A DNA stretch of 64,000 nucleotides, from positions 3,357 to 67,356 of IMG/VR virus record IMGVR_UViG_3300031227_000001; one strand, written 5' to 3'. The position numbers and the translations under genes were made by a program. Origin of the DNA: a virus. Of this stretch, positions 14,052 to 38,922 are shown piece by piece (the first letter of the stretch is position 1; the number at the start of each line of letters is the position of its first letter). The notes beneath the pieces were generated by a model. It made no database searches and had not been told where the DNA came from. It saw nothing but the letters and a program-made list of their open reading frames with translations.

Positions 14052-14810
14052 ATGATGCTATACAAGGTATTGAATGCTGATCTAACACCGGCACACGGGG
14101 GATCGTTTGACTATGCTCCATATGCCAAGTCCGGTAAATGGACACCAGGGATCACGAACGTCTGTATTTGCGAACGCGGTTATCATCTAACTACAGACCC
14201 GCTAAAGTGGTTGGCGGTTGGGATGCGAGTATTTAAGGCGCAGGGGCGTGGCGCAAGCTCCACCAACGACGACAAAAACGCCTTTGCGTCTATACGCCTC
14301 TTGGAGGAAAGGCCAGATCACGTGCCAAAATACTGGCACGATGTAGAAAACTTTGTAGCGAGCATTGCCGCTGTGCCATGGTTCATAAATGGCGAGGCGT
14401 TACCAGAGTGGCGGGTATTTGAGACAAGGGCCGCCACAAGGGCCGCCACAAGGGCCGCCACAAGGGACGCCACAAGGGCCGCCACATACGCCGCCACAAG
14501 GGCCGCCACATGGGCCGCCACATGGGCCGCCACATGGGGCGCCACAAGGGCCGCCACAAGGGCTGCCACATACGACGCCACATACGACGCCACACACGAC
14601 GCCACATGGGCCGCCACATGGGCCGCCACATGGGACGCCACATGGGATGCCACAAGGGCCGCCACACTTCTAGCCCGCGTGTTGGTTGTGGCCGCCACAA
14701 TTGACAAGCAGCACCCGGAACACGCCAAGGCGCGTTGGGATGTTTGGAAGCGCGGGTATGGACTGTACTGCGACGTTGAGGGTGTGCTGTATGTATACAA
14801 GCAACCGTAG
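14052..14810 (+). CDS. Phage protein with tetrapeptide (AAT-R/W/Y) repeats
   Basis: ~20 tandem in-frame 12-bp units at 14424-14667; CERGYH N-terminal motif; extended -10 TGCTATAAT at 14026. Confidence 0.7.
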   Translation: MMLYKVLNADLTPAHGGSFDYAPYAKSGKWTPGITNVCICERGYHLTTDPLKWLAVGMRVFKAQGRGASSTNDDKNAFASIRLLEERPDHVPKYWHDVENFVASIAAVPWFINGEALPEWRVFETRAATRAATRAATRDATRAATYAATRAATWAATWAATWGATRAATRAATYDATYDATHDATWAATWAATWDATWDATRAATLLARVLVVAATIDKQHPEHAKARWDVWKRGYGLYCDVEGVLYVYKQP

Positions 14811-33059: not shown

Positions 33060-33206
33060 TTGACAAGGCAGAGCAAATAGTATATACTAGGAGCGTCTAG
33101 GTACGGGGATGCGGATTTTTTTATAGCATGTAATAAGCGCCGTTACCAAGCAACCGCAGCCTTGCCTAGACATCACGATTGCCAAACTTGGTAGCGGCGT
33201 TTGTTA
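33060..33206 (+). promoter_or_regulatory. sigma70 promoter + A-B-A'-B' structured leader upstream of RAMP-like gene
   Basis: TTGACA(33060)-17-TATACT; A 33095-114/A' 33154-71; B 33131-50/B' 33187-206. Confidence 0.75.
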
Positions 33207-33223: not shown

Positions 33224-33847
33224 ATGGCTAATCTCGTTGAGGCTACGGTTCGTATCAAGGGAACGCGGCCCATTATGTGGCACGCATTCGGCCCGGATTC
33301 GATTCCTCTGGAAAAGAAGGAACGAACGGGCGTCGCCGGTCACGATCCTGAAGAATGGCGCAAGACTGTGCTTTGTACCAAGAGCGGTCAGCTTTACGTG
33401 CGCGGCGACTACATCTTTGGTTCTATCCGCGACGGCGCAAAGCACACTAAGCGCGGACGTGGCTCTATTCAGCGCTTTGTGCAAGCTACCCTGCAAGTGG
33501 CTAATGATCGCGTCCTGATTGATGACCGCTTCATGCCGGGAGCGAATGGCGCGTATGATCCAATTACGGCAGAGCCGCCGGACACCGATCCGGAAGCGCT
33601 GGTTTATCTGGATATTCGTTCTTGCGTCAATCCGTCCACTCGCGGGCGTAATGTGCGCTATCGTGTTGCGGCTAGTCCAGGCTGGGAGTGTGGCTTCACG
33701 CTGCAATGGGATGCAACCGTTGTCAGTCGCGGCGAGATGGAGGCGGTTATGATTGATGCCGGTCGTCTCGTTGGAGTGGGTGACGGGCGCAATATCGGAA
33801 TGGGCCGGTTTATCGTCGAGCAATTCGACGTTCAAGAAATCGGATAG
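33224..33847 (+). CDS. Stand-alone Cas7/RAMP-superfamily-like RNA-binding protein
   Basis: 207 aa; N-terminal strand VRIKGTRPIMWH, LYV.G..I.GSI..GA helix, C-terminal Gly-rich loop AGRLVGVGDGRNIGMGRF; SD AGGAGG. Confidence 0.75.
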   Translation: MANLVEATVRIKGTRPIMWHAFGPDSIPLEKKERTGVAGHDPEEWRKTVLCTKSGQLYVRGDYIFGSIRDGAKHTKRGRGSIQRFVQATLQVANDRVLIDDRFMPGANGAYDPITAEPPDTDPEALVYLDIRSCVNPSTRGRNVRYRVAASPGWECGFTLQWDATVVSRGEMEAVMIDAGRLVGVGDGRNIGMGRFIVEQFDVQEIG

Positions 33848-33856
33848 GCTTTTCCG

Positions 33857-34225
33857 GGCTCGGCTTGGCATGGCCGGGCTGGGCGTGGCGAGGCGTGGTA
33901 AGGTATAGCAAGGCAGGGGTTCTATTCGCTAGCCTAGTGGTGCAACTCCGCAGAATAGAAATCGCGGGGCCTGGCGAGGCATGGCCGGGCGGGGCCAGGT
34001 GGGGCGGGGCTAGGCCTGGTGTGGCGCGGCCCGGCGAGGTAAGGCAAGGCAGGGATTCTGTTCGCTAGCCCAGCGGTGCAACTCCGTAAAGCAGGAATGA
34101 CTGGGTCAGGTACGGCTTGGCAGGGGCACGGTCAGGTGGGGCTTGGAAGGGCGCGGCGTGGAAGGGCCGGGCATGATGTGGTCTGGTGCGGCGAGGCGGG
34201 GCCCAGGTATAGCAAGGCAAGGCGA
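33857..34225 (+). ncRNA. Array of three GGY-NN pentamer tracts separated by conserved hairpins (putative guide RNA array)
   Basis: Tract 1 33857-33916 (12 units), tract 2 33968-34052 (17 units), tract 3 34104-34225 (24 units, two 1-nt slips); hairpins 33917-33963 and 34053-34098 share TTC..TTCGCTAGCC.AG.GGTGCAACTCCG. Confidence 0.85.
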
Positions 34226-34229
34226 GGAT

Positions 34230-34514
34230 ATGCCAAAGTCAAGGCAGCCGATAGAAATATGGCGCGAGACGCGGCGCAAGGTATGGGAGCGCGATGAGGG
34301 CATCTGTCAACATTGCGGCAAGCCCGTATCCTTGCGCATATGTCACACAGACCATATTTATTCTGGCAAACTCGCGGGCAATAAGATGAGCAACTTGCGA
34401 ACACTGTGTAGGCGCTGTCACGTTTTACGCAAAGACATGCGACATCGCGGCATGATCGCAAGTGCTCTCCGAGATGGTATTATTCCTCCAAACTGGCGCG
34501 AGTTGGTTTGGTAG
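34230..34514 (+). CDS. Small HNH endonuclease
   Basis: ERDEGICQHCG..HTDHI..NLRTLCRRCH; ATG directly after last GGY unit. Confidence 0.85.
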   Translation: MPKSRQPIEIWRETRRKVWERDEGICQHCGKPVSLRICHTDHIYSGKLAGNKMSNLRTLCRRCHVLRKDMRHRGMIASALRDGIIPPNWRELVW

Positions 34515-34938: not shown

Positions 34939-34998
34939 TTGCCCTACGTGCCATGTGTACGATAGGATCAGGTGTCGTGTAAGCGATACTAGGAACGG

Positions 34999-35067
34999 GG
35001 CGGTGCGGGCCTGACGGGAATCAGGCCATAAGAGGCTACGAGCCGGTATCAAATCCGGCGACCGCAC
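34999..35067 (+). ncRNA. tRNA-like RNA copy 2
   Basis: GGCGGTGCGGGCCTGACGGGAATCAGGC...GCCGG-TATCAAAT-CCGGC-GACCGC. Confidence 0.55.
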
Positions 35068-35156
35068 ATGCAAGCTGCGAGCTTGGAACGTAGCGCCACC
35101 ATATTCCGAACCCCCGCTAACGCGGGTTGCCGAAAGGATAGGACATGGGGCGCTAG

Positions 35157-35219
35157 GCGCGGGCAAGAATAGGTCTTGGGGTCGCAACTCAAGAGGCGGT
35201 GCAATTCCGCCGCCCGCGC
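35157..35219 (+). ncRNA. D-armless tRNA-like element
   Basis: GCGCGGGC/GCCCGCGC stem, TCTTGGG/CTCAAGA arm, GGCGG-TGCAATT-CCGCC T-like arm. Confidence 0.45.
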
Positions 35220-35321
35220 TTAGCGGGACTTTTCACGGTGCAAGCCATTGGCGGTTGGGCTGAAACTAACCGCCAAACAGAAACAAGATCGCGGGAAGCC
35301 GCAGCGATAAAAATAGGGCGG

Positions 35322-35401
35322 GAGGGCGCGGGCCTGACGGGAATCAGGCAGGGCACAAGGGTGCTGATTCTATGAGCCGGTGTCGAATCCGGCCACCATT
35401 C
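35322..35401 (+). ncRNA. tRNA-like RNA copy 3 (degenerate closing stem)
   Basis: GCGGGCCTGACGGGAATCAGGC...GAGCCGG-TGTCGAAT-CCGGC-CACC. Confidence 0.5.
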
Positions 35402-35780
35402 TTGGTGACAGCATGATGCCATTAGCTCTGTTGGGCTATAACTAACAGAGCATAGAATAGAAGGGGGAGAAGGAAGATGGAGAGCAAGCAGTGTTGCGCG
35501 GAAGAGCAAGAGTCCTATGTTTACAAGCAATATGCACGTTACAGAAAAAGGGGGCTTACGCCAAACGAGGCGCTACAGCTCATCTATTTGGAGCTAGGCG
35601 AGTCCAGGGTATCGCTTCAGCCGCCGCGCATTATTGACCCTATAGAGCGACGCTAGAAGACGCGCCATTAGCTCCGCAGCTAACAGAGCATAGAAACAAA
35701 ACGTGGGATAGCCGCAGCGTTGAGCGGGCGGGGAGGGGCGGCTCAGTTTGATGTGTAACGCCGGCGTGATATGGGGGGAT

Positions 35781-36227
35781 ATGTTCGAACAGCAAGCAAG
35801 ACTTTTTGCCTGTGATTGTGCAGAGCGCGTGCTGCCTATCTTTGAGAGCGAATATCCTAACGAGCATCGGCCACGGCAAGCCCTCGCGACTGCGCGACGA
35901 TTTGCAAAGAACGAGGCCACAGCCAAAGAGGTAAGAGCGTCCCGGGTAGATGCTGCCGTAATAGTGTGTAGGGAGATAGGCGGAGGCACTATAGCGGAAA
36001 CTATAGAGATTTTGGCCGCAAGAACGGCGCTTGGCAGCATAGGTTGGGTAACAGCCGATGGCATAAGTGCGCGGTGCATCGAAGGCGCAACAGAGGCTGC
36101 CAGAAAAGCCATTGAGCTGTCGGTATTGGCAAAGACAGAAGACTTGTCTCGGGCCAAAGATGCCGCAAATGCAGAGCGTGTCTGGCAAAAAGCACAACTA
36201 CAACGCTATATAAATGACAAAACATAG
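35781..36227 (+). CDS. Imm5-like phage protein
   Basis: ARLFACDCAERVLPIFE...RPRQAL..AR. Confidence 0.5.
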   Translation: MFEQQARLFACDCAERVLPIFESEYPNEHRPRQALATARRFAKNEATAKEVRASRVDAAVIVCREIGGGTIAETIEILAARTALGSIGWVTADGISARCIEGATEAARKAIELSVLAKTEDLSRAKDAANAERVWQKAQLQRYINDKT

Positions 36228-37223: not shown

Positions 37224-37493
37224 GTGACAAAGCACACTGATCTACAGCAAGCAGTCCTAGAGCGTGACGGTTGCACATGCCAAGAGTGCGGCAAGCACAC
37301 GCTAACCACGCATCATATCATATCCAGAAGATTCAGAGATAGCTGGAGGCCGTGTAATCTTATAGCGCTTTGTACAGAGTGCCACGCCAAGGCGGGCGGG
37401 GCCAAGAAAAGACACTTGAACCATTTGCGAGACAAGTACGGCTATGAGTATACAAAACGATTGTGGGTGATTGCGCTAGAGGAGATGGGATGA
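37224..37493 (+). CDS. HNH endonuclease
   Basis: ERDGCTCQECG..HHII..NLIALCTECH. Confidence 0.85.
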   Translation: MTKHTDLQQAVLERDGCTCQECGKHTLTTHHIISRRFRDSWRPCNLIALCTECHAKAGGAKKRHLNHLRDKYGYEYTKRLWVIALEEMG

Positions 37494-38011
37494 CCAAAGA
37501 AGCAAAGGTAGAGATACGCCAACTCTCGGAATTTGCGCCTGACAGTGAAAATGCGAATGAAGGCACTCAACGCGGCGCAACGCTATTAGAGAACTCCGTC
37601 TCAGAAGACGGTGCTGGCCGGTCACTATTGGCCACCTCGGATGGGGTGCTCATTGCAGGCAACAAAACACAAGCGGCACTAATGGAACGCGGCATAGAAG
37701 AGGTAATCGTAGTCCACACAGACGGGACGCAAGCGGTCATTGTGCAGAGAGACGACGTCCAGGCCGGAACAGACAGGGCCAAACTTATGGCTTTGCGCGA
37801 TAACAGGACTTCTGAAATTGGACTAAATTGGTCAGCAGAGCAAATCGCGGCTGATCTGGCAGACGGGCTAGACTTATCGGGACTGTTCTTTGATAGCGAG
37901 CTAGCGGAGATATGTGAGAAGTTGCCCGAATTCAAGGAATATGATGAGGGTGTGGCTGACGAGGTAGAGTTTGTAACTTGCCCAAAGTGTGGTCATCAGT
38001 GGCCCGCGTAG
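37490..38011 (+). CDS. ParB/Srx-like N-terminal domain protein with C-terminal Zn ribbon
   Basis: NAN......L..S...G.GRS...LIAGN...DNR.SE...W; CPKCG. Confidence 0.6.
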   Translation: MTKEAKVEIRQLSEFAPDSENANEGTQRGATLLENSVSEDGAGRSLLATSDGVLIAGNKTQAALMERGIEEVIVVHTDGTQAVIVQRDDVQAGTDRAKLMALRDNRTSEIGLNWSAEQIAADLADGLDLSGLFFDSELAEICEKLPEFKEYDEGVADEVEFVTCPKCGHQWPA

Positions 38012-38922
38012 ACTATCCGGCGATTCTTGAGCAAGCATGGCAAGAGCACCTTGCGCCAAGAGAAGCAGACGCGCCAACAGTTGTCAGTACCTTTGCGGGT
38101 TGCGGCGGATCGAGCCTTGGCTATAGCATGGCGGGCTATAGGGAATTACTGGCAGTCGAATGGGATGATAACGCAGTTGCGACGTTCAAGCTCAACTTCC
38201 CAGACGTGCCGGTTTACCATGGGGATATTTGCAAGCTGTCGGTAGAGGAATGCTTGAATCGGGCAAAGATAGAACCTGGACAGATTGACGTATTGGATGG
38301 GTCGCCTCCGTGCCAAGGATTCAGCACGGCAGGCAAGCGCGTTATGACAGATGCCCGTAATAGCTTATTTAGAGAATTTATACGGCTCTTGCGCGGCTTG
38401 CGTCCCAAAGTATTCATTATGGAAAACGTAAGCGGTCTAGTCAAGGGCAAAATGAAGCTAGTCTTTGCAGAGATTATGCGAGAAATGAAAGCTAGCGGAT
38501 ACAAGGTATCGTGCCGATTGCTAAATGCTATGTACTTTCAAGTGCCGCAATCACGGCAACGACTGATCTGGATAGGCGTAAGAGAGGATTTGAGCATAGA
38601 GCCGAGCCATCCGAAGGCGAGATTAGTGATTGGTAGTATTCGCGTTGATGATCGGCTCTGCTCGTTGAGTAGAAAACGATATGGTGACAAGCTACAATGT
38701 GAGCATAAGCCGATTAGTACAATTACAAAAATTGGGCGACATTTTTGGGATGTTCGGCACGAGTTTGGTCCGCTATCATATTCTGTAAATGCTTCTTTTC
38801 CAAGAGAGTTTATGTTTGTTGGCGGGTTAGCTGTACGCAAACAGCGTATCGGCAACAGCGTCCCGCCGCTATTCATGCGAGCCATTGCGGGGCATGTAAG
38901 ACGAGAGATATTGAGAGCATGA
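37999..38922 (+). CDS. DNA cytosine-C5 methyltransferase
   Basis: FAGCGG, GSPPCQGFS, ENV, QSRQR, GNSVPP. Confidence 0.95.
   Translation: MARVDYPAILEQAWQEHLAPREADAPTVVSTFAGCGGSSLGYSMAGYRELLAVEWDDNAVATFKLNFPDVPVYHGDICKLSVEECLNRAKIEPGQIDVLDGSPPCQGFSTAGKRVMTDARNSLFREFIRLLRGLRPKVFIMENVSGLVKGKMKLVFAEIMREMKASGYKVSCRLLNAMYFQVPQSRQRLIWIGVREDLSIEPSHPKARLVIGSIRVDDRLCSLSRKRYGDKLQCEHKPISTITKIGRHFWDVRHEFGPLSYSVNASFPREFMFVGGLAVRKQRIGNSVPPLFMRAIAGHVRREILRA

What the first reader, a model, noticed from the sequence alone, without database searches (positions are those of the whole stretch)
33968..34052. Tract 2 dinucleotides spell the Prim-Pol motif when every third base is skipped
NN = CT GA AT CG GG CA GG GG TA CT GT GC CC (then GA AA AA AG). 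As codon positions 1+2 this reads L-D/E-I/M-R-G-H/Q-G-G-Y-L-V-A-P, matching the conserved D(I/V)RGxGGY(V/I)VAP motif of bifunctional primase-polymerases of phages, satellites and plasmids. No Prim-Pol gene is visible in this window. This supports a 2-match/1-skip code that ignores the wobble base, making targeting resistant to synonymous escape and aimed at a competitor's replication gene.
Basis: partly seen in the sequence, partly recalled or inferred. Interest (0 to 1): 0.9.

Follow-up and report, generated by a model that had tools for sequence, protein, structure and literature searches.

The report
Phage VIPR guide aimed at Prim-Pol
The repeat tract is a guide RNA of a phage VIPR system, a CRISPR-related RNA-guided system described in 2026, and its variable bases spell a conserved motif of the primase-polymerase genes of rival mobile elements, so it is a new example of a known kind.

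Summary
Observation confirmed and interpretation supported, but the mechanism is already in print. Tract 2 (33966-34055) is one of three runs of NN-GGY pentamers between a 207-aa protein and an HNH gene in a complete 67-kb phage genome. The protein folds as a Cas7/Csm3-type RAMP (pLDDT 96; Foldseek E 2.6e-9). This is the VIPR architecture of bioRxiv 10.64898/2026.04.26.720920, which showed that vrRNAs read DNA as NN plus one skipped base, usually the wobble.

The dinucleotides are as listed. One further 5' unit (GG) extends the reading to G-L-D/E-I/M-R-G-H/Q-G-G-Y-L-V-A-P. With two units left open, the one-skip pattern hit at least 120 IMG/VR loci, against 0 for a reversed-unit control. All 120 were in frame. 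All 119 unique segments scanned, which also include the later metagenome and genome hits, were Pfam Prim-Pol. The best natural sites match 27 of 28 read bases. One lies in an integrase-bearing island.

On 22 Prim-Pol loci chosen by Pfam alone, only the one-base skip scored high; 300 shuffled guides never reached 80%. No perfect target, no RNA data and no matching host were found. This scan met VIPR before on another genome (e1-4763532).

The parts
33060..33088 (+). Promoter-like site upstream of the vipr gene
   Evidence: TTGACA, 17 nt, TATACT: 11 of 12 consensus positions. No terminator-like site was found between 33113 and 34900. This is a consensus match only.
33224..33847 (+). vipr gene: 207-aa single-domain RAMP protein with a C-terminal Gly-rich loop
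   Evidence: AlphaFold2 model with pLDDT 96 and pTM 0.90. Top Foldseek PDB hits are Csm3/Cas7 chains of type III-A complexes, E 2.6e-9, probability 1.00, TM about 0.5. No Pfam family; phrog_4652 matches the C-terminus only. 1130 relatives at E <= 0.001. G184, G194 and R147 are invariant, and R195 and F196 nearly so.
33845..33965 (+). vrRNA 1: NN-GGY repeat tract followed by a conserved tail
   Evidence: Read directly and detected as a period-5 run at 33840-33919. Its guide found no target in the DNA I searched.
33966..34035 (+). vrRNA 2 guide: 14 units, NN = GG CT GA AT CG GG CA GG GG TA CT GT GC CC (the finding)
   Evidence: It matches Prim-Pol genes in frame at 23-27 of 28 read bases under a one-base skip.
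34036..34101 (+). vrRNA 2 constant 3' part: units GA AA AA AG, then a spacer conserved with the one after tract 1
   Evidence: Similar to the end of tract 1 and the spacer after it. These units mostly do not match Prim-Pol sites. The predicted fold is no better than shuffles, z = 0.42. No Rfam match.
34102..34229 (+). vrRNA 3: NN-GGY tract with two register slips, ending at the HNH start codon
   Evidence: detected as runs at 34092-34126 and 34123-34202. No target was found.
34230..34514 (+). HNH endonuclease gene (94 aa), the likely VIPR accessory gene (vap)
   Evidence: PF01844 HNH, E 3.5e-7, and phrog_589. A homolog lies next to vipr in 43 of 61 related IMG/VR loci.

Best explanation
The tract is the guide region of a vrRNA of a phage-encoded VIPR system, made of a Vipr RAMP protein, an array of three vrRNAs and an HNH accessory gene. 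By the published mechanism, Vipr protomers coat the RNA and bury each GGY. They present each NN for pairing with DNA in which every third base is skipped.

This vrRNA's 14 NN units have the same sense as codon positions 1+2 of the motif G-L-D-I-R-G-(H/Q)-G-G-Y-(L)-V-A-P, which lies inside the Prim-Pol domain (PF09250). The RNA would therefore pair with the template strand of Prim-Pol genes and could not pair with their mRNA.

The likely function is to silence the replication gene of competing integrative elements, satellites, prophages or plasmids, or to cut it with the HNH partner. The site could not escape by synonymous change.

Shown here: the anatomy, the RAMP fold, the conserved gene neighbourhood, and the skip-specific, in-frame match to Prim-Pol genes. 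Taken from the literature: the RNP, DNA binding and the one-base skip. Inferred: that Prim-Pol is the natural target, and what happens to it.
For: - Anatomy: three NN-GGY tracts lie between vipr and HNH. They are the only such runs in the window.
- Fold: Cas7/Csm3 RAMP.
- Conservation: 61 related IMG/VR loci. + strand tracts lie beside vipr in 44 of 61 and an HNH homolog in 43 of 61.
- Published system and rule: 10.64898/2026.04.26.720920; abstract of 10.64898/2026.04.26.720927; passages of 10.64898/2026.10.15.759431.
The same units in reversed order gave 0.
- Frame and match: 120 of 120 hits are in frame. Over 14 units they match 23-26 of 28 read bases, including the two 5' units that the pattern did not fix.
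- Family: 10 of 10 whole ORFs and 119 of 119 unique segments are PF09250.
- Closer sites: with only unit 10 open there were 19 metagenome and 8 genome loci. Six of these 27 match 27/28.
- Mismatch-tolerant search: 3 of 401 genomes at up to 3 mismatches, against 0 of 401 for the backwards control.
- Unbiased Prim-Pol sample: skip 1 gave a best of 26/28 and 2 of 22 loci at >= 23. Skips 0, 2 and 3 gave maxima of 18, 18 and 19. Of 300 shuffles, 0 reached 23 and the highest was 21.
- Context of one 27/28 site: an island beside tRNA-Glu with two tyrosine integrases, a serine recombinase and a DUF5906 protein. Another sits by a cI-type HTH gene.
- No self-target and no Prim-Pol gene in the phage's own genome.
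Against: - No perfect target. The full 13-unit pattern and two 10-unit parts gave 0 in IMG/VR. An 11-unit part gave 0 in metagenome and genome contigs. The variant with H/Q fixed gave 0 in IMG/VR.
- Every best site keeps the same mismatch: the first base of unit 10 is C in the guide and G or A in the targets.
- The named 27/28 genome records are Acidobacteriaceae and Terracidiphilus MAGs, while the phage DNA is held by salt-lake metagenome runs. The real host and competitor are therefore unknown.
- Guides 1 and 3 hit nothing in the Prim-Pol loci, the five genomes or the island. There is no convergence of several guides on one element, as was reported for SUSP1.
- None of 86 tracts from the 61 related loci resembles this guide (best 58% over 12 bases). 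As a set they hit the Prim-Pol loci no more often than shuffles do (4 against 6).
- The two open units were chosen with the motif in mind.
- The mechanism rests on preprints about a distant Vipr clade: tblastn of this Vipr found nothing in 50,697 GenBank phage records.
Confidence: 0.8

Rival explanations
1. It is a genuine VIPR vrRNA, but Prim-Pol is not its natural target. The likeness would be a near miss to an abundant, Gly-rich conserved motif, and the true target is an exact match in DNA not held in the collections.
For: No exact match was found in any collection. A fixed mismatch remains at unit 10. The best sites come from taxa not expected in a salt lake. Guides 1 and 3 do not converge on the same elements. 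The preprint says that most top natural targets match perfectly.
Against: 27 of 28 read bases is far above the preprint's 80% criterion. Composition-preserving shuffles never exceeded 21/28 on the unbiased Prim-Pol loci or 22/28 on the island. The match is specific to the one-base skip. It is in frame in 120 of 120 IMG/VR hits and in 26 of 27 metagenome and genome hits; the exception, L209, lies in a 31-aa frame. The two 5' units that the search pattern did not fix match as well.
Confidence: 0.12
2. The pentamer tracts are not guides. They would be a protein-binding or structural repeat: for example an RNA decoy or sponge wrapped by a multimeric protein, or DNA sites for packaging or replication near the HNH gene.
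For: G-rich period-5 repeats could bind proteins without carrying any code. HNH genes often sit near packaging genes in phages (recalled). No expression data exist for this locus.
Against: The constant part is GGY while NN differs in every tract and locus: 86 unique tracts, none alike. The tracts are strand-specific and tied to a RAMP gene. The terminase gene lies 6 kb away. The NN string carries a skip-specific match to a gene family. The published system has the same anatomy.
Confidence: 0.04
3. The tract is protein-coding, or its period 5 arises from a peptide repeat.
For: ORFs of 67 and 73 aa overlap the tracts on the + strand.
Against: A period of 5 nt is out of step with codons. The tracts of the related locus L002 contain stop codons. 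Conservation sits in GGY, not in any reading frame.
Confidence: 0.01

Closest known systems
VIPR systems (Vipr RAMP protein + vrRNA + vap). Exemplars: Escherichia phage SUSP1 and a Pseudomonas fulva prophage (type II). Source: bioRxiv 10.64898/2026.04.26.720920.
   Same: A small single-RRM RAMP protein. Guide RNAs made of GGY/NN pentamers with a constant 3' part, arrayed beside the gene. One accessory gene. Carried by a phage. A one-base-skip reading aligned to the wobble position. No self-target. Predicted targets in competing mobile elements.
   Different: This Vipr has no detectable sequence match in GenBank phages, so it is a distant clade. The accessory gene is a 94-aa HNH nuclease rather than the DNA-binding vap described for type II. 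The preprint ascribes predicted nucleases to types it calls host-defensive (III and V; passages), whereas this one is in a complete phage genome. I could not assign a type: the type tables are in supplements that I could not see. The predicted target is a Prim-Pol motif, and 'primase' occurs 0 times in the main text of that preprint.
SUSP1 vrRNA4 against the satellite excision recombinase. Source: bioRxiv 10.64898/2026.10.15.759431 (passages read).
   Same: The guide footprint falls on codons of a conserved catalytic-core segment and skips the wobble positions. Escape therefore needs amino-acid changes in an essential part of the competitor's protein.
   Different: That target is a recombinase and the effect was shown by experiment (blocked satellite excision). 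Here the target is a replication primase-polymerase and is only predicted. 'Primase' and 'Prim-Pol' each occur 0 times in that text.
CRISPR class 1 backbone proteins (Cas7 family: Csm3, Cmr4)
   Same: The same RAMP fold. By the literature, both work as a protein filament along a guide RNA that interrupts pairing at regular intervals.
   Different: CRISPR guides pair over 5 of every 6 bases with a contiguous protospacer and come from repeat-spacer arrays with an adaptation machinery. Here 2 of every 5 guide bases are read against 2 of every 3 target bases. There is no CRISPR array and there are no other cas genes in the locus.

Membership tests
VIPR system | Vipr protein: a small RAMP with an RRM core, a Gly-rich loop and a thumb | tested here: met
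   Model with pLDDT 96. Foldseek top hits are Csm3/Cas7, E 2.6e-9, probability 1.00. Conserved C-terminal G..G.GRF loop. I did not inspect the thumb separately.
VIPR system | vrRNA genes beside vipr: tandem YNNGG units with constant GGY and hypervariable NN (9-16 units in the preprint) | tested here: met
   Tracts of roughly 10-24 units at 33845-34229. Tracts on the + strand beside vipr in 44 of 61 related loci; 86 unique tracts, none alike in NN.
VIPR system | A constant 3' tail after the repeat tract | tested here: inconclusive
   Tracts 1 and 2 end in similar units and are followed by a similar spacer of about 45 nt. Tract 3 shares only the end units and runs into the HNH start. Predicted folds are no better than shuffles. 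No Rfam match.
VIPR system | A conserved accessory (vap) gene with a DNA-related function | tested here: met
   HNH gene at 34230-34514. Homolog adjacent in 43 of 61 loci. The preprint names HNH domains among vap proteins (Fig. S21 legend).
VIPR system | Targets read as NN plus one skipped base, mostly aligned to the wobble position | tested here: met
   For vrRNA 2 only: the match is specific to skip 1 and in frame. No target was found for vrRNAs 1 and 3.
VIPR system | No self-targeting of the source contig | tested here: met
   0 matches at up to 3 mismatches in the window and in the whole 67,356-bp record.
VIPR system | The vrRNA is expressed, processed and bound by Vipr; the RNP binds double-stranded DNA | not testable with these tools
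   No run on record as RNA holds the locus. This needs sRNA-seq, a pull-down and binding assays.
Prim-Pol (PF09250) as the gene family holding the target site | Sites matching the guide lie in frame inside the Prim-Pol domain | tested here: met
   10 of 10 ORFs and 119 of 119 unique segments match PF09250. In L204 the site starts at residue 143, inside the domain at residues 11-181.

The most novel reading that the evidence does not exclude
This guide would not be aimed at one rival. It would be a 'pan-family' guide: it reads only codon positions 1+2 of a nearly invariant Prim-Pol motif. One 28-base guide could then recognise Prim-Pol genes of many unrelated satellites, plasmids and prophages across phyla. 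Sites with 26-27 of 28 matches occur in records titled Acidobacteriaceae, Terracidiphilus and Anaerolineaceae, and sites with 24 of 28 in Zooshikella. Paired with an HNH nuclease carried by a lytic-type phage genome, it would destroy those genes rather than silence them. That would make some VIPR guides work like recognition of a protein motif at the DNA level. It would also show that nuclease-armed VIPRs are phage weapons and not only host defences.
Probability: 0.3. Interest if true: 0.6.

Novelty: new member of a known kind. Interest (0 to 1): 0.35.

Why it matters
It shows that the VIPR one-base-skip code, worked out on E. coli and Pseudomonas phages, also decodes a guide from a distant, HNH-associated Vipr clade in an uncultured phage. 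It adds a replication primase-polymerase to the predicted targets; the main texts I read name recombinases and lysis-lysogeny regulators. It gives a ready test case for two open questions. The first is how many mismatches a natural vrRNA tolerates, since the best sites here miss one base. The second is what a nuclease partner adds when the system is carried by a phage. It opens no new question of principle.

Tried and rejected
- Exact-target searches found nothing. The 13-unit pattern and two 10-unit parts gave 0 in IMG/VR. An 11-unit part gave 0 in metagenome and genome contigs. The H/Q-fixed pattern gave 0 in IMG/VR.
- Guides of tracts 1 and 3 scored no better than shuffles. This held on the 120 IMG/VR Prim-Pol loci, on the 27 metagenome and genome loci and on the 18-kb island. 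They also gave 0 hits in five whole genomes at up to 3 and up to 2 mismatches. I could therefore neither support nor refute the sibling idea that tract 3 reads an integrase box.
- Guides from other VIPR loci, tested on the Prim-Pol loci as 10-unit windows at >= 18/20, gave 4 hits at skip 1 against 6 for shuffles. Skip 3 gave 45 hits, which I did not follow up.
- No guide similar to tract 2 occurs among the 86 tracts.
- No RNA holder is listed for the locus.
- Laying DNA contigs of four runs showed no variant letters, only assembly breaks and partial look-alikes at the repeats. I draw nothing from this.
- Predicted folds of the two tails and of the whole vrRNA 2 were no better than shuffles: z = -0.07, 0.42 and -0.18.
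- Rfam gave nothing in 33800-34300 at E <= 1 and nothing at gathering score in ten related loci. A hammerhead-like CUGAUGAG...GAAAC spacing that I saw in L002 is therefore unconfirmed.
- tblastn of Vipr against GenBank phages gave no match.
- I did not run complex prediction for Vipr and HNH, because I make no binding claim.
- Supplements of the preprints (type tables, target lists such as data S3) were closed. They may already list HNH-type loci or Prim-Pol targets.

Full report
**What is in the sequence.** The window is 64 kb of a 67,356-bp virus record with direct terminal repeats. Genes run almost wholly on the + strand, with phage functions such as a large terminase, methylase and ParB-like protein.

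Between a 207-aa ORF (33224-33847) and a 94-aa HNH gene (34230-34514) lie three tracts with a strict 5-nt period. In each unit GGY is constant and the two bases before it vary. A scan of the whole window for runs of at least 7 such units found four runs, all at 33840-34202 on the + strand, and none on the - strand.

I add one 5' unit: GG-GGC at 33966. The last four units (GA AA AA AG) resemble the ends of the other tracts and look like the start of a constant tail.

**What the system is.**
- Family: the 207-aa protein has no Pfam family but belongs to a large one. There are 1130 relatives at E <= 0.001 among 1410 candidates and 305 cluster representatives at E <= 0.001.
- Fold: with a 45-sequence alignment it models at pLDDT 96 and pTM 0.90. 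Its best PDB matches are Csm3/Cas7 subunits of type III CRISPR complexes, E 2.6e-9, probability 1.00.
- Neighbourhood: among 61 related IMG/VR loci, + strand NN-GG tracts lie beside the gene in 44 and a homolog of the HNH gene in 43.
- Transcription: a promoter-like site (11 of 12) precedes the gene, and no terminator-like site lies between it and the end of the HNH gene.

A literature search found that this architecture is described in bioRxiv 10.64898/2026.04.26.720920. I read the outline, the Results, Methods sections 20, 26 and 27, and passages. VIPR systems consist of a Vipr RAMP protein, vrRNAs built of GGY/NN repeats with a constant 3' tail, and an accessory vap gene, mostly in phages.

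That preprint shows the one-base-skip rule by pangenome searches, competitive binding and GFP repression. Only the NN bases specify the target, and the target carries one skipped base between them. The skipped base usually falls on the codon wobble position, and natural targets lie in competing satellites and prophages.

A companion abstract reports cryo-EM structures of the filament and a triplex R-loop (10.64898/2026.04.26.720927). A later preprint shows a SUSP1 guide reading the catalytic-core codons of a satellite recombinase (10.64898/2026.10.15.759431, passages only).

This scan had already met a VIPR array on another genome (e1-4763532).

**Does tract 2 read a Prim-Pol motif?**
- Exact patterns found nothing: 13 units and two 10-unit parts in IMG/VR, and 11 units in metagenome and genome contigs.
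The same units in reversed order hit none.
- All 120 hits are in frame and read (V/I/L)DIRGxGGY(V/I/L/F)VAP in 61 distinct contexts. Over 14 units they match 23 (7 loci), 24 (24), 25 (79) or 26 (10) of 28 read bases. This count includes the two 5' units that the pattern did not fix.
- Leaving only unit 10 open gave 19 metagenome and 8 genome loci, but none in IMG/VR.
- Six of those 27 match 27 of 28 (L187, L194, L196, L203, L204, L210). Three of the six share an identical 45-nt site, so there are four distinct sequences. The rest match 23-26. L209 lies in a 31-aa frame and is probably not a gene.
- Ten of 10 whole ORFs are PF09250 Prim-Pol.
- So are 119 of 119 unique segments around the site at E <= 1e-5. 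These came from 147 hits. Duplicates were collapsed, and L106 (58 aa, at a contig end) and L209 were left out.
- In the alignment of these segments, columns not fixed by the pattern are also nearly invariant: D112, D114, T135, G138 and H140. From memory these correspond to the first two catalytic motifs of archaeo-eukaryotic-type primases, and the guide covers the third conserved segment. That assignment is recalled, not tested.

**Controls.**
- The two open units were chosen with the motif in mind, so I ran tests that do not depend on that choice.
- A search allowing up to 3 mismatches with all 14 units over 401 genomes of one family found 3 genomes. The pattern read backwards found none.
- A Pfam search of 121 genomes of that family gave 23 Prim-Pol loci. 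I dropped the locus of the centre genome, which had been found through the pattern.
- On the remaining 22 loci the guide scored 26, 23, 21, 21, 21, 20, 20 and 19 of 28 at the homologous site under a one-base skip.
- Skips of 0, 2 and 3 bases reached at most 18, 18 and 19. None of 300 guides with shuffled unit order reached 23, and the highest was 21.
- The match is thus specific to the order of the units and to the one-base skip, and it covers about 2 of 22 Prim-Pol genes at the preprint's 80% criterion.

**What the targets are.**
- One 27/28 site lies in a 2.9-Mb contig of a MAG. The island there sits beside tRNA-Glu and holds two tyrosine integrases, a serine recombinase and a DUF5906 protein.
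- The Prim-Pol/AAA_25 gene follows an integrase directly, which is the make-up of an integrative mobile element. Only guide 2 matches it: 27/28 against a shuffle maximum of 22.
- Another 27/28 site lies next to a cI-type HTH gene on a 7-kb contig.
- The phage itself has no Prim-Pol gene and no self-match.
- The guide has the sense of the coding strand, so it would pair with the template DNA strand and not with the mRNA. That fits the DNA targeting reported for VIPR.

**Against the reading.**
- There is no perfect target. The same base mismatches in every best site: the first base of unit 10.
- The named best genome records are Acidobacteriaceae-type MAGs, whereas the phage DNA is held by salt-lake runs.
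- Guides 1 and 3 found nothing.
- No related locus carries a similar guide.
- There are no RNA data.
- Whether the HNH cuts the target is unknown.
- I could not assign a VIPR type, and the supplements that may already list such loci or targets were closed.

**Verdict.** The thing is a new member of a kind published in 2026. Its own points of interest are the HNH partner in a complete phage genome and a guide that reads a nearly invariant Prim-Pol motif.

Noticed in passing
L002:3880-4180 (same contig as L172): Between two NN-GG tracts downstream of the HNH gene lies a spacer with GAAAC ... CUGAUGAG, reminiscent of a hammerhead core. The preprint mentions hammerhead-interspersed vrRNA arrays. 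Rfam at gathering score found nothing in this locus.
   Followed up: partly
window 34950-35400: Downstream of tRNA-Thr (34866-39) is a GC-rich, ORF-poor stretch. Rfam and ARAGORN report only the tRNA-Thr in the window.
   Followed up: no
window 14424-14666: A tandem repeat of 12 nt in 20 copies with 87% matches, inside a + strand ORF (14052-14810). It probably encodes a tetrapeptide-repeat protein.
   Followed up: no
L003-L122 (IMG/VR Prim-Pol loci): Ten-unit windows of guides from other VIPR loci gave 45 hits at >= 18/20 under a 3-base skip (period 5), against 0-4 at other skips. Some of these Prim-Pol-bearing contigs may carry GGY/NN arrays of their own.
   Followed up: no
window 33857-33903 and 33967-34019: In the salt-lake runs many other contigs align only partly (under 90% alike) to the repeat tracts and then run on into unlike sequence. 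This probably reflects other GGY/NN arrays in the same communities. The contigs were not examined.
   Followed up: no
window 35748-36227 and 37463-38922: An Imm5-like immunity-protein homolog (PF21805, E 2.7e-12), a ParB-like protein and a C-5 cytosine DNA methylase lie just downstream of the VIPR locus.
   Followed up: no
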